Shown one piece after another: positions 2,521-61,068 of a stretch of DNA of 64,000 nt. Below the pieces are notes generated by a model. The model worked only from the letters and a program-made list of their open reading frames with translations. It ran no database searches and was not told where the DNA came from. The translations under genes were made by a program, and so were the position numbers. Source of the DNA: Asterias amurensis (Eukaryota); NCBI RefSeq assembly GCF_032118995.1, contig NC_092661.1:19526621-19590620 (forward strand), read 5' to 3'. Within the stretch, counting starts at the first letter, position 1; each line of letters starts with the position of its first letter.

Positions 2521-2585
2521 GGTAAATATTAGTTTCTAACAGTGTACGATATAATGTGTGTGACAGTTATTAATTTGCGTTTTTA

Positions 2586-2880
2586 CCCATACACCGATGT
2601 GTGTTAGCACTGTATACTCAGTACTTTCCCGAGTCCTGTGAAAAAATCTCACAGGTATGTTACTCGGGTGGGATTCGAACCCACGACCCTTGCAATTCTA
2701 GAGCAGTGTCTTACCTACTAGACTACCGAGGTTGCCCGGCAGCTAGAGGCAGTTCGAATCCTATGTTTTGGCAGCGGGTACTGCAACGATATAATAGATG
2801 TTAAATTTGCATCGGGGATAAAGAATATTAATTTTGGTTTTTACCCATACACCGATGTGTGTTAGCACTGTATACTGTGA
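2586..2880 (-). mobile_element. tRNA-derived SINE family S1, about 1.3 tandem/rearranged units
   Basis: tRNA-like core GGGTTCGAATCCCACCCGAGTA (T-arm) and D-arm-like GTCTAGTAGGTAAGAC on the - strand. Its tail repeat TTTTACCCATACACCGATGTGTGTTAGCACTGTATACT occurs at both ends. Confidence 0.65.
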
Positions 2881-15179: not shown

Positions 15180-16320
15180 TTTCAGCCAGAACTGGACACA
15201 GTTCCTAGCAAGAGCGTTGTACTCTGCAAGGTCCTCAGTTCTGTATTTCTGCTCCATAGTTTGTGGCTCTGTCTTACATATGCAGGTAACGTCTTCAGAG
15301 TCTTGATATCCCCACTTCTTGAGAGACACGTTGCACCGGCCAGTTGATGTTCTTAGTCTGTTGAGGCACTTCTATTCAGCCCAACCTGAGTCAGCATCAG
15401 GGGGGGGGGGGAGTTCTTCCGAAGCACTTATGTCCATGGATGTTCTAGGTGGAAGTTAACCAAGTCTCTCATGTCACATGGCAGTTCAAAGAGCCCCAGC
15501 TTCTGCACTTGGTTTGACTTTGTTGAGGAAGCTTTTCCTGGACCGAGTCTATTCTTAGCAGGTGTGTGGCTGAATTGAGGGTTTCGCTTGTGGTATGGCT
15601 ATACCAGAAAGTTTGTACAGACTATCAGTTGGTGTTGGTCTGAGGCATCCAGTGATGAGTCGCCATGTAGCATTGATGGCTAGATCAATTTTCTTAGCGT
15701 GGGTAGATCTTTCCCAGACTGGGCACGCATACTCTGCAGATGAATAACAAAGGGCTAAGGCTGTTGATCGAAGAGTGTCTGGACTGGCACTCCATCTTGT
15801 TCCAGTAAGTTTGTTGACAATGTTGTTTCTTGCACAGACTTTGGCTTTGGTCTTCGCAACATGAGTCTTAAAGGAGAGGCAGCGGTCTAGGGTGACACCT
15901 AGATACACTGTATGGTCACAGTTTTCAAGAAGAGCCCCAGACCAGGATTCTTTCAGTTGGCATTTGGCTTCTCGATTACAGAGATAAAAGGCTGAATGAG
16001 AGTGATGACTTCTGCAGCACTATAGTCAATTCGGTGGTCGGTTAAAGAATCCCTCGTTTTATGATGAAGTTTCTTGTTAGCGGAAGGTATATTGGCCTTA
16101 TGCCTGCTTGATGGAACATACACGGAAGAAAGTGAGTAGTGATATGTGGTTGACCTTGGGTATGGGAACATATAGTTAAGTTTGGGGCGGCTTGGTGGTG
16201 TTAATCTGGTTGAAACTGTAGCTGTCCATACGATTGCGGTGACCCTACAATTGTCTTTAAAACTCCTCTGCAGAAAGTGACTGGCAAAATTGGGACCAGA
16301 AACAATACGATCCACAATGT
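15180..16320 (-). mobile_element. degraded non-LTR retrotransposon (LINE) RT remnant inside the inverted-arm composite element
   Basis: The - strand ORF 15555-15908 encodes YLGVTLDRCLSFKTHVAKTKAKVCARNNIVNKLTGTRWSASPDTLRSTALALCYSSAEYACPVWE, the conserved block C-terminal to RT motif 7 in CR1/jockey-like LINEs. It is interrupted by stops and frameshifts. Confidence 0.6.
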
Positions 16321-21228: not shown

Positions 21229-21836
21229 GTACGGTTTGTTTATTACACTTTCTAGTTCCAGGATGGTGACAAGCAGAAGTTACCAGGTTTTGGTCTTTCA
21301 CAGATTTGTGGTGTAGAAAAAAGGTGTATTCCTGATGAATAAAGAAGCCCTACTACACTACCCCTCAAAAAGAAATCAAATGAGTAAATGTTGGAGCTAA
21401 TGTACCCAAAGCCTCATCCTCCTGAAGTTGTAACTGTGTACTTTATATTAATGATAGTCACTCCAACACTACTCTAAGCAAATGAATAAAATACTTGTTA
21501 ATACTAGTTGATTTGCAACCAATTGTTTTCTTACAATTAAATTGTAAACTTTTGATCACATTATCATAATTCTTGAAAACTTTCCAGACCTGTAATATTC
21601 AAAAGGTGACGGATTTGAGTTTCCACCGAGAATTTACAGTTATATACATTTTCAAGTATTGTAATCAAAAGTTTACCATAAAATTGTATCCAATTTATAA
21701 CAACTCAGATGAAGTTTCAATTTTTTTTCCTCATTTTAAAGCGGCAAGGAACTGTTTGGGTTGATTTGGAAAAAACCCTGATCAAACCAAACTTTAAAAT
21801 GGTTTTTAAAAGCATCACTGTTATTTATTATTGCAG

Positions 21837-22384
21837 AGCGGACACAAACTCGGCCTATTCTGGCATCACAGGCACAAATGTTGTACTGAGACATGATGGA
21901 CTGGTGCAGATGAAAACCAAACCTTACATACAACGTAGCACATGCCACATCAAGATTCGCTTCTTTCCTTTCGATGAACAGAAATGCCAACTGAAATTTG
22001 GGCTGTGGACATATGACTGGAATCATGTAGATCTACAAAACTCAACTGCAGGACCAGACAAATCGCAGTATTTAGAGAATGAGCAATGGGACTTGATGTA
22101 TTCATGTTTCAAGAGGAATCTTGAGAGCTACATATGTTGCCCAACTAAGTATGTGGATGTGACGCTTTTCGTTGGCATACGCAGGAAGCCTCTGTACTAC
22201 ATGTACAAGTTGGTGATGCCGATTGTTTTACTCTCTGCATTGTCTATGGTGGGTTTCCTGATGCCTTATAATGTGGGTGTGGTCAAGGCAAACCTCAGCA
22301 TCACTCTTATCTTGTCAATGACTGTCTTCCTACTTCTGGTGGCTGAGACTATTCCTAAGACATCAGAAGGACTTCCACTTATCA
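21837..22384 (+). CDS. nAChR alpha-like subunit, exon 3 (Cys-loop, vicinal CC, M1, M2)
   Basis: Acceptor tattgcAG. Contains the Cys-loop CHIKIRFFPFDEQKC, the alpha-subunit vicinal cysteines YICCPTKYVDVT, M1 RRKPLYYMYKLVMPIVLLSALSMVGFLMP and M2 ANLSITLILSMTVFLLLVAETIP. Donor GTAAGT at 22385. Confidence 0.8.
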
Positions 22385-22790
22385 GTAAGTATTCGTCTCG
22401 TTTGGATTCATTGGAGATGTCTCAGACATTTTGTACTTGTAATGTCACAGTAACATTACAACGCACTAAGTTCACAGTCCTTTTTAACAATCAAACCCCT
22501 CAGGTGAATACAGTTTATTAGCGTTTTGTCCCCCGAGAGATAACCTTACAGAAACACTTAACAATCATTTTTTCTGCGCCTCGGAATAGGGTCTTGTACA
22601 CTAGATAGATGGCGCATTATAAATGCATTATTATTATTATTATCATTCCTAAACCTTTGATAGCTGAAGTGTGACCTTGCAGGAACAATCATGTTGCAGC
22701 TGTGTTCCTTTCACTCATCCTCCACCTCACAATCTAATATGTTCCCATCACATTGACATTTTAATCTTATTTGCACATCATCAACTACAG

Positions 22791-33889: not shown

Positions 33890-34170
33890 TAAACCTACAC
33901 AGGAGGGCGCTATGCCGATTTAACGGTGGCGATTTTATTTTTATGCAGAAAAATTAACGGTGGTGTTAAATACCGCCCTCATACGTTTGGACGTAAGTAT
34001 GTGACGTCACCATTCTGAAACGCAATGCATGACGGGACAATATCAAGGGTTAAAGGTCAATTGGTACTGCATAAACTTTAAATGTAAGAGGGGGCGCTAT
34101 TTAACCACACCGTTAAGTAAACTACCCTCAATTAGTCCATAGCGGGCGCTATTTAAGGACAACGTTACAG
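33890..34170 (-). promoter_or_regulatory. RPL24: RPL24 proximal promoter with three GGGCGCTAT...TTAA(C/G)G motif repeats and one TGACGTCA (CRE)
   Basis: Three spaced copies of GGGCGCTAT(G/T)..TTAAC/GG upstream of the TOP start, plus a palindromic TGACGTCA at about 34003-34010. Confidence 0.4.
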
Positions 34171-34179
34171 TATTTGTAG

Positions 34180-34222
34180 GGCGGGGGCGGGGGCGGGGGC
34201 GGGGGCGGGGGCGGGGGGGGGG
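34180..34222. repeat. (GGGGCG)n microsatellite followed by a G-run
   Basis: GGGCGGGGGCGGGGGCGGGGGCGGGGGCGGGGGCGGGGGGGGGG, about 340 bp upstream of the RPL24 start. Confidence 0.9.
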
Positions 34223-34261
34223 TGCTGGTGTATCCAGGTATAACAAGCGCAGAATGATAAA

Positions 34262-34320
34262 CTTGCAGGGTGTGACCATGGAGGAAGGTGTGACCATGCC
34301 TCCATGGTGTGACCATGGAG
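34262..34320. repeat. short tandem repeat GGTGTGACCATGGAGG x3
   Basis: Direct repetition visible. Confidence 0.7.
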
Positions 34321-35439
34321 GTAGACTGACGTCCGTCTGCTGATTGGTCCGCTCCTATGAGCACTCTTTCTCGAAAAAAAAAATGACAGAAGGCAGGAAT
34401 CAATTTCACTAGTACTATATTAATGTGTACCTTCTAGCCAACCTCGTTGGGCTGATGGTGCTCTTCTTTTCGGTCTTGCCTTGGAGCTACCTCAATGGGG
34501 GTAGATTCTACCTCCACATACAGGCAGAGTCCATGTTCTCACTATGGAGCTATCACAGAGCCATATAGAACAGCATAGACCCAGTAACTGGGGCGCTGTA
34601 CTCCTTTTCGAATTTTTACATTATCGGTCATATCGAAAATGTCAAAATTTTGAAAAAGGAATACAGCCCCCAGTTACTGGGTCTTATAACAGCACATTGT
34701 TGGAACAAGGTGGTGGGCCCATGACTTTTATTTCTAGCCCTGTTTAGGATAGGAGCAAAAAACTAAAAAGTGAGCACCTGCCAGGAGTAAAATTTAGCGG
34801 AATAAAGTTTATTGAAACAAAGTAATAAATCAAAGTGCTTTTAGACCCTCATTTTTAAGATTGTTTTATTTCAGAGTAAATACAAATATTTCCCAGCACT
34901 GAACTTTGTATGACATTTCAAAAAAGTGTATAAAATATTCCTTTAAAGGTTATTAAATAAAATTTACTTGGCAAGGTATAAAACATTATTTCAGATAAAA
35001 TAGTTAATAAAACAACTAACTATTTTTATGTCATTCTGAGACAAGATCATAAAACCTTGGTGCTATGCTTTTCACAGTAAATCAATCAATCTATATGCCT
35101 ACAATAGTAGAGTACAATCAATTAAGTTTCTTGCAGTAACACTATAAATCAAGATTACTTCTCCAATAGTCGATAGGCAAACTCCTTTCAGTTGTTATGT
35201 TGAGTGCAAACTTTAAACCTGCTCAAGGTCAAAGCGAGTTGTGGTGTTACTTCATTACGCTCACTGAACTTTAGTTTTTGACTGAAAACTCTTAAAGTTA
35301 CCTGGTAGTGGTATTTTTTCCAAATAAAGCTTTTGCCACTAATATATGTGTTTTGATGAGTGGAATGTGAATAAACAGTCAACTAAGGTTTTAAAAAATC
35401 AGTTCTTATGTTATTTACAAATTTAGGAGTAGACCCCCC

Positions 35440-35932: not shown

Positions 35933-36003
35933 AATAGATGTAAATTTGCATAGGGGATAAGGAATATTAATATGGTTAACCCATTTTACACTGATGTGTG
36001 AGA
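35933..36003 (-). mobile_element. SINE S1, tail fragment
   Basis: GATGTAAATTTGCATAGGGGATAAGGAATATTAAT matches the S1 tail. Confidence 0.4.
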
Positions 36004-36543: not shown

Positions 36544-36984
36544 CTGGGACAAAAAAGGTGGTATAAATGAAACAGAATGATGAGTGTCTTTCATTTCGAA
36601 ATAAATCATGAACCACAAAATGACTTGCAACAAAACTTAACTTTTCACTAAAGTACATGTAGTAAGTTTTCCTAAAGCTAAATAGGATCGATACACGTAC
36701 ATGTATAAATACAGCTGTATCAACACTTTTTGAAGAATAAAAGCAAAAGATAAATTCTAGGTTTCACATTACAAAATAATAACTTTTTCAATCATCACAC
36801 AAAAGCTGTAACCATTACAGCACTATGAATAAATTTCACAAAGAGATATGATTGATCTTTAGATGTACATCTATTGTAAATGCTTAGCAAAATGTGACAT
36901 CACGATACAAAACACTTAAGCATTTTGACAAATCATTTTACAATGAATCTTGGTGTTTTATGAAACCTAGCCCTAGATACTTAC

Positions 36985-37179
36985 AGCAACCAACCTCCAG
37001 GCTTCATTGATGAGGGCATACTGCATACGGTTTGCAGCAAACCCATCAATCTCTCTCTTGACCGTCACAGGAACCTGACCAACTTCCTCTAGTAGTGACC
37101 GGGTTCGTGACATAATGGACTGGTTAGTCCAAGAGTTGGGTATGATCTCCACAAGAGGGCAATAGTACGGTGGGTTACA
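36985..37179 (-). CDS. CRYL1: CRYL1, exon 5
   Basis: CNPPYYCPLVEIIPNSWTNQSIMSRTRSLLEEVGQVPVTVKREIDGFAANRMQYALINEAWRLVA matches human VNPPYYVPLVELVPHPETS...[23 protein letters not shown]. Donor GTAAGT. Confidence 0.85.
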
Positions 37180-37292
37180 CTGTAATCAAAGATATAAGAA
37201 AATAAACAAAACTTACAACAATCATGTTCCTTTATGACCAAAAGCTTATAAAGTACATGTAGTATCCCACATTCCTTGTCCATATTACTTAC

Positions 37293-37454
37293 TGGATGGG
37301 CCACAATGCATTGGTTGCGGCGTTTGAGTTGATCAGTGAATTTAGACGGCACTATACAGGATGTAGAACTACAAAGGACAGTAGAATCATCAGCGTACTG
37401 TTCCATCTGCATAAAGACTTTCCTCTTAAGATCTTCATTCTCTGGCACACATTC
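37293..37454 (-). CDS. CRYL1: CRYL1, exon 4
   Basis: ECVPENEDLKRKVFMQMEQYADDSTVLCSSTSCIVPSKFTDQLKRRNQCIVAHP matches human [54 protein letters not shown]. Donor GTAAGT. Confidence 0.85.
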
Positions 37455-37622
37455 CTGACAAGAAAAACAAGCAAAATCAACTCATATTATTGATAGGTAC
37501 ACATCATAATCAAAATAGTGTGCGAACCATCACTGTAAGAAATGTTTCCACATTAGAGTCAACATTGAATACTTGTTACGATTTCATGACAAAAACAAAT
37601 CCAAAGTACAATATGACCCAAC

Positions 37623-37775
37623 CTGTACATGCATGGCACCAGTGACTGCATCCTTCATCTCCATGGTAACACTGATTAGCGCCATCTGTTGCTCAGGAGA
37701 CAGTGAGCCTCTTAACAGACCAGACTTCTTTAGTTCCTCCAACTGCTTTTCAATGTCTTCGAGAGCATTAGTCAA
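37623..37775 (-). CDS. CRYL1: CRYL1, exon 3
   Basis: LTNALEDIEKQLEELKKSGLLRGSLSPEQQMALISVTMEMKDAVTGAMHVQ matches human [51 protein letters not shown]. The donor GTTGGG is weak. Confidence 0.75.
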
Positions 37776-37985
37776 CTGAAAGATAATCAACATTTTGAAC
37801 TTACTCAGAACAAGGCAATTGTTGAATCTAGTAAATTTAGCAAAGGAGGATCAAGGGATCACAGATAGTAAAAATTCCTGATCTTTTTTTGCCAACTTCT
37901 TATTTTTTTTTACTGAATTGAGTAAAGTTTGTTCATTCTTTTCGTTTTGATTGACAAGGAGAAAAGGAAACACAATTAAGCTTAC

Positions 37986-57322: not shown

Positions 57323-57359
57323 CTGAAGAATAGAAATACACAAGAAAGATGCATCAAAC

Positions 57360-57749
57360 TTAAAGGCAGTGGACACTATTGGTAATTACTCAAATAATTA
57401 TTAGCATAAAACCTTACTTGGTAATGAGTAATAGGGAGCTGTTGATAGTACAAAACATTGTGAGAAATGGCTCCCTCTGAAGTAACATAGTTTTTAGGTG
57501 AAAGAAGTAATCTTCCACGAATTTGATTTCGAGACCTCAGAACTATATTTTGGGGTCTCAAAATCAAACATCTGAAAGCACACAACTTCAGTCGACATGG
57601 GTGTTTTTCCTTTCATTATTATCTCGCAACTTCAACGACCAATTGAGCTCAACTTTTCACAGGTTTGTTATTTTATGCAAATGTTGAGATACAGCAAGTG
57701 AGAAGACTGGTCTTTGACAATTACCAATACTGTCCAGCATCAGTCTTAA
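57360..57749 (-). mobile_element. MITE family M1, full copy (REV3L intron)
   Basis: TIRs plus central hairpin. Confidence 0.8.
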
Positions 57750-58031: not shown

Positions 58032-58139
58032 CTGAAACAATAAAAATAAACTCAGTCTTACTTCAGGTCATGGCAACAAGATAAAATTGACAGCATTAAT
58101 TTAAATGATTTTTGGGGTTGAACAAAGAAAAATTTACTA

Positions 58140-58212
58140 TAGTGGGATTTGAACCAACGACCTCTGGATTAACGTGCCGGCGCTCTACTAACTGAGCTAT
58201 CTAGCCCTATGT
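58140..58212 (-). pseudogene. tRNA-Asn(GTT)-like pseudogene or SINE head remnant
   Basis: The - strand reads GGGCTAGATAGCTCAGTTAGTAGAGCGCCGGCACGTTAATCCAGAGGTCGTTGGTTCAAATCCCAC. The D-arm and T-arm are canonical, but the acceptor stem cannot pair. Confidence 0.4.
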
Positions 58213-58327
58213 TAGCGGTCTCCCTATTGACAATATCTTTGTTCAGGGGTGCAAACAATTTACCCAGTCAGTTTCCCTTGTGGTTTATATTGATAGCATT
58301 AATTTAACTTGGAGGAAGAATTCTCAC

Positions 58328-58737: not shown

Positions 58738-58915
58738 TTCCTGATAACACACAGAATCTGATCCAGTAGTTCAGCCTCGGATGCTACTGATGTAATCTTG
58801 GTATCATTCAAACCACTATGTGCAAGATGTGATGATAGATGACATGAGGTTGATGGTCCTGCGTTACTATGGTTACTATCATCAACCATGATCACACCGT
58901 GAAACATATTTAGAT
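58738..58915 (-). CDS. REV3L: REV3L exon
   Basis: (D)LNMFHGVIMVDDSNHSNAGPSTSCHLSSHLAHSGLNDTKITSVASEAELLDQILCVIR(K). A weakly conserved linker, in phase with the flanking exons. Acceptor tattAG, donor GTAAGT. Confidence 0.65.
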
Positions 58916-59147
58916 CTAATAACAAAGGAATATCAAAAATATAACTTTGAAAATAATTTTTTAAATTCCAATAATGTTGCTTTGATAAGAAAGTTTGTCA
59001 AAACTGTTTTCCTTAGAGAAAAATAAAGTATGAAAATAAAATAAAAGGGACTAAACTGGATTCATGCTTCTTAAGAATGGGTAGGTAAAGTGAACAAAAT
59101 AATGCAAATAATCAGCAAGTGCTGTTTTTCTAATTGAGACACACAAG

Positions 59148-59363
59148 AGATGTTAAATTTGCATCGGGATAAAGAATATTAATTTTGGCTTTTACCCATA
59201 CACTGATGTGTGTTAGCACTGTATACTCAGTACTTTCCCCGAGTCCTGTGAAAAAATATCACAGGCTTGTTACTCGGGTGGGATTCGAACCCACGACCCT
59301 TGCAATTCTAGAGCAGTGTCTTACCAACTAGACTATCAAGGTTGCCCGGTAGCTAGAGGCAGT
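59148..59363 (-). mobile_element. SINE S1, full copy (REV3L intron)
   Basis: Tail plus tRNA-like head; about 90% identical to the 2586 and 60292 copies. Confidence 0.75.
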
Positions 59364-59591
59364 TCACACACACAATTCACATTACGTATTCCACCGTCTG
59401 CTAAGAACTGACTCTTAGATAATCCATCTCCTTAAATAAAAATTGTTTTATTTAAGGCAAGCTGGTCTGTTTTTACATGAAAGGCATTAGGTCTTAGCTG
59501 CTCAACCCTTGCAAATTATAAGGCTTGGAATTCAAACTATGAGAGGCCAATACTGATTTCGTTCACAAAGGGTACTTCCAATGGAAAAACT

Positions 59592-59972
59592 TTAAAGGCA
59601 GTGGACACTATTGGTAATTGTCAAAGACTAGCCTTCACAGTTGTTGTATCTCAACATAAGCAGAAAATAAACCTGTGAAATTTTGAGCTCAATCGGTCAT
59701 CGAAGTTGCGAGATAATAATGAAAGAAAAATAACCCTTCTCACACGAAGTTGTGTGCGTTTAGATGGTTGATTTCGAGACCTCAAGTTCTAAATCTGAGG
59801 TCTCGAAATCAAATTCGTGGAAAATTACTTCTTTCACAAAAACTATGGCACTTCAGAGGGAGCCATTTTTCACAATGTTTTTACCATCAACCTCTCCCCA
59901 TTACTCGTCACCAAGAAAGGTTTTATGCTAATAATAATTTTGAGTAATTACCAATAGTGTCCACTGCCTTTA
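59592..59972 (+). mobile_element. MITE family M1, full copy (REV3L intron)
   Basis: TIRs plus central hairpin; flanked by TTAA. Confidence 0.8.
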
Positions 59973-60074
59973 AGTCTATGGGAAAGTTCTGAGGGGCTAC
60001 CAAGCCAAGACTAGGACAACATTGGAAATACAGTGAACATCATGTATTAAGATTTAAGAGTAAAGACTGCTTAC

Positions 60075-60243
60075 CACCATCGCTCTGTTCGCTGCTTCCT
60101 TGGCTAGCTCCGTCATGTTGTAGAGGTGTATCTTGTTGGATGCTATAAAACAATGCTCTGATTGGATCAGAGTCTGGGTCTGGATGGTAGTCACGTCTTG
60201 TCTTGATGTGTAGCTCTAGGCTCATAATACTCAGATGCTGAAT
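60075..60243 (-). CDS. REV3L: REV3L exon (169 nt; bracketed by an inverted SINE pair)
   Basis: IQHLSIMSLELHIKTRRDYHPDPDSDPIRALFYSIQQDTPLQHDGASQGSSEQSDG matches human IQNLTLISVELHARTRRDLQPDPEFDPICALFYCISSDTPL. Donor GTAAGC. Confidence 0.8.
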
Positions 60244-60291
60244 CTTCAATCAAAACATACAACACAGACATAAGAGATCTTATAACAAATC

Positions 60292-60507
60292 ACTGCCTCT
60301 AGCTACCGGGCAACCTCGATAGTCTAGTTGGTAAGACACTGCTCTAATATTGCACGGGTCGTGGGTTCTAATCCCACCCGAGTAACATGCCTGTGATATT
60401 TTTTCACAGGACTCGGGGAAAGTACTGAGTATACAGTGCAAACACACATCGGTGTATGGGTAAACAACCAAAATTAATATTCTTTATCCCCGATGCAAAT
60501 TTGTTAT
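60292..60507 (+). mobile_element. SINE S1, full copy in the orientation opposite to the 59148 copy
   Basis: Reverse complement of the 59148-59363 copy. Together they bracket the REV3L exon at 60075-60243. Confidence 0.75.
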
Positions 60508-60948
60508 CTCTTACATGTTGTGACTATTAAGTGAACTAAAATTGACTTTATAACTTTATGACTTCACTGAAACTGTCAAAGACTGAAGAAAATAATCACC
60601 TAAGAACATTAGTGATTCAGTATTTGTATTAGTACTATGTCACCCGCAAGAACTATCAGAAACGAGAACTGATAATAAAAAAACAAATAACAGAATCTGC
60701 ATTGAATAAACTGTATGAGAATTTGTGCATGGATCCTAGGTTGACTGAACCACAAAATTAAATTTCTTGCAAACAACATAAACTTACATAATACTAGTTT
60801 GTTGCTTGAATAAGTCCATACCAAGCAAATGTACATCTTTTAACTTTACAAATCTTGTGTAAAACAGCCTCAAGTTACAGTTAAAAAACAAGTCAAGACA
60901 GCATTGAATTCAAGGCAATGATTTTTGGACTGAATTTCAGATTGATAC

Positions 60949-61068
60949 CTCATGGGTAGCCTTGGCATACTGCATATTAATATCTCCAAACTTGAAGCCA
61001 CAAGTGTTACTGGGCGTGGCACCTTCTATTTGAGACCAGTCCTTGGCATGCCTTCCATCTCCTGAACC
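60949..61068 (-). CDS. REV3L: REV3L exon
   Basis: GSGDGRHAKDWSQIEGATPSNTCGFKFGDINMQYAKATHE matches human ...QIDGTTLQNSHGFKVSMENLQEAKALHE. Donor GTATCA. Confidence 0.7.

What the first reader, a model, noticed from the sequence alone, without database searches (positions are those of the whole stretch)
59148..60507. Inverted pair of SINE S1 copies brackets a single 169-nt REV3L exon
Two ~215-bp copies of the same tRNA-derived SINE sit in opposite orientation, 59148-59363 (-) and 60292-60507 (+). They flank the REV3L exon 60075-60243 and an M1 MITE. In the pre-mRNA they can form a ~200-bp intramolecular duplex that loops out the exon. In mammals, inverted Alu pairs of this geometry drive exon skipping, back-splicing (circRNA) and A-to-I editing. 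Skipping this exon (169 nt, not a multiple of 3) would frameshift REV3L upstream of the polymerase domain.
Basis: partly seen in the sequence, partly recalled or inferred. Interest (0 to 1): 0.55.

Follow-up and report, generated by a model that had tools for sequence, protein, structure and literature searches.

The report
Inverted SINE pair around REV3L exon
Two copies of a short mobile element sit in opposite orientation in the introns on either side of one exon of the DNA-repair polymerase gene REV3L and could pair into a long RNA duplex, but this layout is common and already well described in mammals, and no effect on the gene could be tested here.

Summary
Two ~217-bp copies of a tRNA-derived, SINE-like retroposon lie at 59148-59363 (-) and 60292-60509 (+). 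They are 93.7% identical over 221 aligned nt. Between them lie one 169-nt exon (60243-60075, minus strand) and a 390-bp MITE. The exon is a genuine Pol zeta/REV3L exon with AG/GT splice sites. It encodes the start of the B-family exonuclease-like domain. RNA folding of the pre-mRNA segment predicts a 207-bp inter-SINE duplex. The MFE is -657.9 kcal/mol, against -433.6 when one arm is flipped, and the mean inter-arm pairing probability is 0.94. Skipping the exon gives a stop codon two codons after the new junction, upstream of all polymerase motifs.

No transcript, orthologous or allelic sequence could be reached, so skipping, back-splicing and editing remain untested. The flanks are unrelated, the substitutions are private to each copy, and roughly 1 in 20 comparable windows would hold such a pair by chance. 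I read it as two independent, probably neutral insertions. ADAR hyper-editing of the arms is the likeliest consequence. Low-level exon skipping or a 169-nt circRNA is possible. This is a new instance of a known kind (inverted Alu-like pairs).

The parts
60292..60509 (+). Right S1 SINE-like copy. It is antisense in the REV3L pre-mRNA and lies in the 705-nt intron upstream of exon A. Its 5' edge is 48 nt from the 3' splice site. The tRNA-like head is 60313-60385, and the B box is mutated (GGTTCTAATCC).
59148..59363 (-). Left S1 SINE-like copy. It is sense in the pre-mRNA and lies in the 1159-nt intron downstream of exon A, 711 nt from the donor. The tRNA-like head is 59271-59342, and the B box is intact (GGTTCGAATCC). 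A possible 8-bp target-site duplication TTGTGTGT flanks it.
60075..60243 (-). REV3L (Pol zeta catalytic subunit) exon A, 169 nt. It encodes IQHLSIMSLELHIKTRRDYHPDPDSDPIRALFYSIQQDTPLQHDGASQGSSEQSDG, the start of the DNA_pol_B_exo1 domain. The acceptor is ...gttttgattgaag| (A at -3, T/G-rich tract) and the donor is GTG|gtaagc.
59586..59980 (.). M1 MITE inside the loop. It has perfect 28-nt terminal inverted repeats (59592-59619 / 59946-59973) and an internal hairpin. It is predicted to fold on itself, which shortens the loop between exon A and the downstream SINE arm.
60949..61068 (-). Upstream REV3L exon (120 nt, ...ATPSNTCGFKFGDINMQYAKATHE). If exon A were skipped, its donor would be joined to exon 58915-58738.
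58738..58915 (-). Downstream REV3L exon (178 nt). It begins ATCTAA..., so joining it to the upstream exon reads GAG ATC TAA, a premature stop.
57358..57736 (.). Second M1 MITE copy, inverted relative to 59602-59975 (86.6% over 381 nt). This pair interleaves with the SINE pair in a crossing topology, so it is a potential competing long-range pairing.

Best explanation
Two independent insertions of one young, tRNA-derived, SINE-like retroposon family landed in opposite orientation in the two introns that flank a constitutive REV3L exon. Both arms are transcribed within about 1.4 kb of each other, before the competing MITE copy. In the pre-mRNA they can therefore zip into a ~207-bp, nearly perfect duplex. 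That duplex closes a 928-nt loop holding exon A and a self-folded MITE. I judge the arrangement to be a non-adaptive by-product of transposon insertion. Its most probable molecular consequence is promiscuous A-to-I hyper-editing of the two arms by ADAR, followed by normal splicing of most transcripts. A minor fraction may undergo loop-out skipping of exon A, giving a premature stop and probably nonsense-mediated decay. Another minor fraction may back-splice to a 169-nt circle. Shown here: the repeat, its orientation, its position relative to verified splice sites, the thermodynamic preference for the duplex, and the coding consequence of skipping. Inferred: that the duplex forms in vivo, the editing, the skipping and circRNA fractions, and neutrality.
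For: The repeat is established. The sequences outside the elements are unrelated (alignment). Target-site duplications differ or are undetectable. Against an 8-copy alignment, about 6 substitutions are private to the left copy and about 10 to the right, and none is compensatory. This is what two decaying independent copies should look like. Dispersed family: a third full copy lies at 2568-2753, 5'-truncated copies lie at 2803-2876 and 35935-36000, and further copies occur in unrelated contigs L001-L003. L003 itself carries another inverted S1 pair 3.8 kb apart. Folding gives MFE -657.9 against -433.6 kcal/mol with one arm flipped. The arm-arm duplex is -381.6 against -63.7 and -63.8 for the arms alone. 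There are 207 inter-arm pairs, mean pairing probability 0.94, and perfect helices of 56 and 51 bp. The chance rate of such a pair is 4.5% per comparable window. Literature: hyper-editing across Metazoa is concentrated in long, nearly perfect dsRNA formed by neighbouring inverted repeats, mostly SINEs (PMC5625713). Inverted Alu pairs flank constitutive exons almost as often as skippable ones (PMC13019027). Repeat dimers at circRNA loci are young and show no sign of selection (PMC8516420).
Against: No RNA data for this species could be reached, so nothing about in vivo pairing, editing or splicing is observed. Three features favour a stronger splicing effect than 'minor'. First, the SINE edge is only 48 nt from the 3' splice site, inside the ~100-bp zone from which Alus are depleted in human (PMC13019027). 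That is also within the distance range where an antisense Alu altered splicing in the RABL5 minigene (PMC2533698). Second, the acceptor looks weak and the donor strong. Third, the downstream intron is short. The two focal copies share two states not seen in most other copies (G to A in the D arm, and a GGGG run). This could mean a shared subfamily or gene conversion. Neutrality is inferred without any population or orthologue data.
Confidence: 0.62

Rival explanations
1. Inert arrangement. The two arms rarely or never pair in vivo, because co-transcriptional splicing, hnRNP coating or RNA helicases (DHX9-like) act first. Under this reading the pair has no measurable effect on editing or splicing.
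For: Introns of 705 and 1159 nt can be removed quickly. In human, MFE differences between inverted pairs flanking skippable and constitutive exons are small (d = -0.12, PMC13019027). The MITE pair 57358-57736 / 59602-59975 offers a competing pairing.
Against: The predicted gain from pairing is very large, about 224 kcal/mol. The arms are only 928 nt apart, and both are made before the competing MITE copy. Across Metazoa, neighbouring inverted repeats of this quality are the main hyper-edited loci (PMC5625713).
Confidence: 0.22
2. Functional splicing switch. The duplex loops out exon A often enough to tune REV3L dosage through a premature stop and NMD, or to produce an abundant functional 169-nt circRNA, and it is maintained by selection.
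For: The geometry matches experimentally validated loop-out cases such as hominoid Alu pairs (PMC13019027) and the RABL5 minigene (PMC2533698). The SINE is 48 nt from the acceptor and 21 nt from the best branch-point match (CUUAU at -27, sequence). The exon has a weak acceptor and a strong donor. Skipping yields an immediate stop.
Against: There is no sign of constraint on pairing: all 14 differences are private and uncompensated. The family is young and dispersed, so such pairs arise by chance (L003). Loss of REV3L function is usually deleterious (own knowledge: mouse Rev3l knockouts are embryonic lethal). As far as I recall, single-exon circRNAs in human tend to come from exons longer than 169 nt (own knowledge, not checked here).
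Confidence: 0.08
3. DNA-level effect. The inverted repeat acts as a recombination or replication hazard, for example by inverting the 928-bp segment through recombination between the arms or by hairpin/cruciform formation, rather than acting through RNA.
For: The arms are 217 bp, 93.7% identical and 928 bp apart.
Against: The longest uninterrupted identity is 56 bp. The spacer is long. From my own knowledge, inverted Alus are markedly unstable mainly when nearly identical and separated by less than about 100 bp. The window shows an intact exon in the correct orientation.
Confidence: 0.03
4. Source of small RNAs. The excised intronic hairpin is diced into endo-siRNAs that target other S1-containing transcripts. 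This is compatible with the best explanation as an extra fate of the duplex.
For: Perfect helices of 51-56 bp within a 207-bp duplex. From my own knowledge, hairpin-derived endo-siRNAs from inverted repeats are known in flies, worms and mouse oocytes.
Against: The arms lie in two different introns, so the hairpin exists only in unspliced pre-mRNA or in a skipped-exon lariat. Hyper-editing antagonises dicing. No small-RNA data are available.
Confidence: 0.05

Closest known systems
Inverted Alu pairs driving loop-out exon skipping (hominoid Alu pairs, PMC13019027; intronic Alus in RABL5, PMC2533698)
   Same: Two copies of one SINE family in opposite orientation lie in the same pre-mRNA close to an exon. 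A stable stem-loop is predicted. The upstream element is antisense and within tens of nucleotides of the 3' splice site. The exon has a weak acceptor and a strong donor. Skipping shifts the reading frame.
   Different: The SINE family is unrelated (tRNA-derived, not 7SL) and the host is an unidentified non-mammalian animal. No RNA evidence exists here. In RABL5 both Alus lay in the same upstream intron rather than flanking the exon.
Reverse-complementary repeat dimers flanking circRNA exons (PMC8516420 and work cited there)
   Same: Young, lineage-specific SINE copies form the complementary pair. Canonical splice sites bound the enclosed exon. There is no evidence of selection on the dimer.
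   Different: CircRNA loci are typically flanked by long introns (PMC8516420). Here the flanking introns are only 705 and 1159 nt and the enclosed exon is a single 169-nt exon. No back-splice junction has been observed.
ADAR hyper-editing of neighbouring inverted repeats across Metazoa (PMC5625713; PMC9989829)
   Same: A long, nearly perfect intramolecular dsRNA made by two nearby inverted SINE copies in an intron. This is the substrate class that carries most hyper-editing in every animal examined, purple sea urchin included.
   Different: Editing was not tested here. The presence of ADAR in the host is assumed from its metazoan gene content.

Membership tests
tRNA-derived SINE | tRNA-like 5' head with internal Pol III A and B boxes | tested here: met
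   Rfam RF00005 hits above the gathering score on both arms and on copy 3. ARAGORN calls copy 3 a tRNA. The B box is GGTTCGAATCC in the left copy and the consensus, and is mutated to GGTTCTAATCC in the right copy.
tRNA-derived SINE | Short (under 500 bp), non-coding, dispersed copies with unrelated flanks | tested here: met
   Copies are ~217 bp. The window holds three full copies and two 5'-truncated ones. Further copies lie in L001, L002 and L003 from three independent public records.
tRNA-derived SINE | Defined 3' end with 5'-truncated copies (target-primed reverse transcription) and target-site duplications | tested here: inconclusive
   The 3' end ...GCAAATTTAACATCT is shared, and the 5'-truncated copies at 2803-2876 and 35935-36000 fit. 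Target-site duplications are less clear: 8 bp (TG-rich) for the left copy, none of 5 bp or more for the right, and a 10-bp repeat for copy 3 that encloses 32 extra 5' nt.
tRNA-derived SINE | A-rich or LINE-derived 3' tail, and no internal Pol III terminator | tested here: not met
   There is no poly(A). No partner LINE tail was found in the window. A T6 run (GATATTTTTTCACAGG) is conserved inside all copies, and the common 5' end lies 21 nt upstream of the tRNA-like +1. I therefore call it SINE-like rather than a proven Pol III SINE.
Known SINE superfamilies (Meta, Deu, CORE, V) | Shared central domain | not testable with these tools
The MetaSINE paper has no supplement held as text, and full-text searches for sequence fragments found nothing.
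Inverted-repeat SINE pair flanking an exon (IRAlu-like) | Both copies in one transcription unit, in opposite orientation, in the introns on either side of an exon with canonical splice sites | tested here: met
   REV3L exons in one frame lie on both sides (61068-60949, 60243-60075, 58915-58738). The orientations are - and +.
Inverted-repeat SINE pair flanking an exon (IRAlu-like) | Complementarity sufficient for a stable long duplex | tested here: met
   93.7% over 221 nt, 207 bp paired in the MFE, a gain of about 224 kcal/mol over the flipped-arm control, and pairing probability 0.94.
Inverted-repeat SINE pair flanking an exon (IRAlu-like) | RNA-level consequence: A-to-I clusters, exon-skipped isoform or back-splice junction | not testable with these tools
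   No transcript data for the species. Protein-database searches for the locus found no close relative.
REV3L / DNA polymerase zeta catalytic subunit | B-family exonuclease-like and polymerase domains plus a C-terminal C4 zinc finger, with Pol zeta as the closest solved relative | tested here: met
   PF03104 E 2e-17. The best PDB hits are yeast Pol zeta 7lxd and 6v8p at E 2.4e-12, against 1e-6 for Pol delta. PF00136 scores E 8e-43. zf-C4pol scores E 6e-6, but at 26.9 bits it falls just below Pfam's 28.9-bit cut-off.
   Perfect 28-nt terminal inverted repeats. Six other copies in the window at 80-90%. Many copies in L003 and L004. The target-site duplication was not resolved (TTTAA-like flanks).

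The most novel reading that the evidence does not exclude
In a non-mammalian animal, an inverted pair of tRNA-derived SINEs, one of them only 48 nt from the 3' splice site, loops out a frame-shifting exon of the translesion polymerase REV3L. This produces a sizeable NMD-targeted isoform and/or a 169-nt circRNA. It would be a transposon-built, possibly ADAR-tunable dosage control of a mutagenic DNA polymerase, and so would show that the 'Alu loop-out' mechanism arose independently outside primates.
Probability: 0.07. Interest if true: 0.6.

Novelty: new member of a known kind. Interest (0 to 1): 0.2.

Why it matters
If the duplex measurably diverts REV3L transcripts, it would be a clean, experimentally tractable non-primate example of exon loop-out or circularisation driven by a transposon pair, in a gene that controls damage-induced mutagenesis. 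As it stands, it mainly shows that the IRAlu-type configuration recurs with an unrelated SINE family. It also gives one specific locus, with exact junction coordinates, to check in RNA-seq.

Tried and rejected
1. Orthologous or allelic copies of the locus, to test presence or absence and conservation of the two insertions. Protein searches with four concatenated exons (best hit 47% identity, a spliced fragment from another species) and with the large upstream exon (no hit) found nothing usable.

2. Organism identification. A metagenome scan with a SINE pattern and a protein search with ORFs read through the SINE and MITE found the same repeat families in ENA assembly ERZ21849167, JGI Ga0115547 and GenBank JACSEG01. 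None of these carries an organism name, and a literature search for the accessions was empty.

3. Assigning the SINE to a published superfamily. Full-text sequence searches were empty, and no supplement is held for the MetaSINE paper.

4. A single inverted duplication instead of two insertions. Rejected because similarity stops at the element ends.

5. The exon as an exonised repeat. Rejected because it aligns to yeast Rev3 residues from 667 on and is in frame with both neighbours.

6. Other long inverted pairs in the visible part of the gene. Only the MITE pair was found.

7. MaxEntScan splice scores.

Full report
**What is there**

The region holds a true inverted repeat. The repeat finder gives arms 59191-59363 and 60292-60464 (173 nt, 95% complementary), plus two shorter collinear arm pairs. 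blastn joins them into 60292-60512 against 59363-59145, 93.7% over 221 nt, E 7e-93. The pairwise alignment shows that similarity stops abruptly at both element ends.

Both arms contain a tRNA-like head that passes Rfam's gathering score for RF00005 (59271-59342 on the minus strand, 60313-60385 on the plus strand). A third full copy lies at 2568-2753 (-). 5'-truncated copies that share the same 3' end (...GCAAATTTAACATCT) lie at 2803-2876 and about 35935-36000.

The element between them, at 59586-59980, has perfect 28-nt terminal inverted repeats. It has six other full or partial copies in the window, so it is a MITE.

**The gene**

The minus strand from about 49.4 kb to the window end carries REV3L.

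- Four concatenated exons starting with 60243-60075 hit Pfam DNA_pol_B_exo1 (E 2e-17).
- Their best solved relative is yeast Pol zeta Rev3 (7lxd and 6v8p, E 2.4e-12, aligned from residue 667). Pol delta scores only 1e-6.
- Downstream exons carry DNA_pol_B (E 8e-43; DFQSLYPS and YGDTD motifs at 55.4-53.0 kb). A zf-C4pol match (49.8-50.0 kb, E 6e-6) falls just below Pfam's cut-off.

Reading the sequence gives the following exons: 61068-60949 (120 nt), exon A 60243-60075 (169 nt; acceptor gttttgattgaag|, donor GTG|gtaagc), and 58915-58738 (178 nt). All are in one frame. The flanking introns are 705 and 1159 nt.

In transcript order the layout is as follows:

1. Antisense SINE.
2. 48 nt of unique intron holding the best branch-point match (CUUAU at -27).
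3. Exon A.
4. 101 nt of intron.
5. The MITE.
6. 228 nt of intron.
7. Sense SINE.

Joining 60949 to 58915 reads GAG ATC TAA, so the skipped isoform ends ...KATHEI-stop. That truncates the protein ahead of every catalytic motif. The premature stop lies far upstream of later junctions, which is the classical NMD configuration (established knowledge).

**Can the arms pair?**

RNAfold of the 1461-nt pre-mRNA segment (59100-60560, minus strand) puts 207-210 base pairs between the two arms in the MFE structure (-657.9 kcal/mol).

- Flipping the right arm in place raises the MFE to -433.6 kcal/mol.
- Deleting either arm gives -365 or -357 kcal/mol.
- The arm-arm duplex alone is -381.6 kcal/mol, against -63.7 and -63.8 for the arms folded separately.
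- In the partition function, the mean probability that an upstream-arm base pairs with the downstream arm is 0.94.
- The longest perfect helices are 56 and 51 bp.

The MITE folds on its own terminal repeats inside the loop.

The only other long inverted pair in the visible part of the gene is the MITE pair 57358-57736 / 59602-59975 (86.6% over 381 nt). It interleaves with the SINE pair and is transcribed later. Whether it forms in vivo is an inference.

**Origin of the arrangement**

The flanks are unrelated. The left copy has a possible 8-bp target-site duplication, and the right copy has none of 5 bp or more.

In an 8-copy alignment that includes copies from three unrelated public contigs, about 6 substitutions are private to the left copy and about 10 to the right. 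The right copy's changes include a B-box mutation. None is compensatory. Two states are shared by the focal copies only (G to A in the D arm, and GGGG). This fits a common subfamily and is too little to argue for gene conversion.

The family is dispersed. The metagenome scan found copies in JACSEG010000596.1 and Ga0115547_1060766. A protein search with ORFs read through the SINE and MITE returned 487 spurious "proteins", mostly from ENA assembly ERZ21849167. That assembly's contigs carry the same SINE at 96% and the same MITE at 95%. One of them, L003, holds another inverted S1 pair 3.8 kb apart.

A simulation places an adjacent inverted pair with a gap of 1 kb or less in 4.5% of 64-kb windows with three random copies. 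So the geometry needs no explanation beyond insertion chance.

**Comparison with what is known**

In human, inverted Alu pairs are enriched around skippable exons. However, 21,271 of the 49,891 Alu pair sequences within 1-kb flanks surround constitutive exons. MFE barely differs between the two classes (d = -0.12), and the authors conclude that such pairs are not a major contributor to skipping overall. Only exons with a weak acceptor and a strong donor show a correlation between stability and skipping, together with a higher editing burden. Shorter downstream introns also favour skipping, and Alus are depleted within about 100 bp of exons (PMC13019027).

In the RABL5 minigene, an antisense Alu 24 nt upstream of an exon, paired with an inverted partner, made the exon alternative. 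The effect vanished once roughly 70 nt or more of spacer were added (PMC2533698).

Exon A matches the susceptible profile qualitatively:

- The SINE is 48 nt from the acceptor.
- The acceptor has A at -3 and a T/G-rich tract with about 55% pyrimidines.
- The donor is GTAAGC.
- The downstream intron is 1.2 kb.

This is why I leave about 8% for a substantial effect. The splice-site strengths were judged by eye, without MaxEntScan.

For editing, hyper-edited clusters in all animals studied, purple sea urchin included, sit mostly in long, nearly perfect dsRNA formed by neighbouring inverted repeats, chiefly SINEs (PMC5625713). Editing is therefore the most likely consequence here.

For circRNAs, repeat dimers at circRNA loci are young, lineage-specific and not detectably selected, and most circRNAs are viewed as by-products (PMC8516420). 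The short flanking introns here, and the small single exon, are less typical of circRNA loci.

**Is the element really a SINE?**

Most features fit: a tRNA-like head with A and B boxes, about 217 bp, dispersed copies, a shared 3' end, and 5'-truncated copies. Three features do not fit neatly:

- A conserved internal T6 run, which would act as a Pol III terminator.
- A common 5' end that lies 21 nt upstream of the tRNA-like +1.
- No poly(A) and no identified LINE-derived tail.

I therefore call it SINE-like. This does not affect the pairing argument.

**Limits**

The host is an animal: the window also carries a Cys-loop receptor exon and a 3-hydroxyacyl-CoA-dehydrogenase-type gene. I could not name the species. 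No transcript, orthologue or population data were reachable. Every RNA-level consequence is untested.

**Verdict**

This is an ordinary, probably neutral instance of a well-described configuration built from a different SINE family. It has a modest chance of a real splicing effect because the element lies so close to a weak acceptor. Interest 0.2; new member of a known kind.

Noticed in passing
window 2549-2880 (minus strand): The third S1 copy (2568-2753) is enclosed by a perfect 10-bp direct repeat, ATTATATCGT, which also encloses 32 extra nucleotides 5' of the family's common start. The copy abuts the 3' end of a 5'-truncated S1 copy (2803-2876). This could be a nested or tandem insertion, or 5' transduction.
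   Followed up: partly
all S1 copies, e.g. window 60392-60407 and 59253-59268: A conserved internal T6 run sits inside a 7-bp hairpin (CCTGTGATATTTTTTCACAGG). The family's common 5' end lies 21 nt upstream of the tRNA-like +1. Both are odd for an element supposed to be transcribed full-length by Pol III.
   Followed up: partly
window 58100-58228 (minus strand): A different tRNA-like sequence (Rfam tRNA 31.3 bits at 58134-58206) lies in the next REV3L intron. L004:324-450 matches it at 91%, so it is a second dispersed tRNA-derived repeat family.
   Followed up: partly
window 57358-57736 and 59602-59975: Two M1 MITE copies in inverted orientation (86.6% over 381 nt) bracket three REV3L exons and the left SINE. 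Their pairing would cross the SINE-SINE pairing, so the two are mutually exclusive long-range structures.
   Followed up: partly
L003, L004 (ENA ERZ21849167), L002 (Ga0115547_1060766), L001 (JACSEG010000596.1): Public 'metagenome' contigs carry the same SINE and MITE families (83-96% identity). L001 also encodes a 571-aa EGF/TSP1 open reading frame. These records therefore contain animal host DNA from this species or a close relative. 487 database 'proteins' are ORFs read through these repeats.
   Followed up: partly
window 21682-22518 (+), 36976-37850 (-), 15558-16019 (-): Other content of the window: a Cys-loop neurotransmitter-gated channel exon (Pfam Neur_chan_LBD and Neur_chan_memb), a 3-hydroxyacyl-CoA dehydrogenase-type gene (3HCDH_N), and an ORF that by eye resembles a decayed reverse-transcriptase fragment but has no Pfam hit.
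   Followed up: partly
window 34152-34433 (minus strand): A stop-free stretch translating to a proline or Pro-Arg/Pro-Ala run reflects a CCN-type simple repeat.
   Followed up: no
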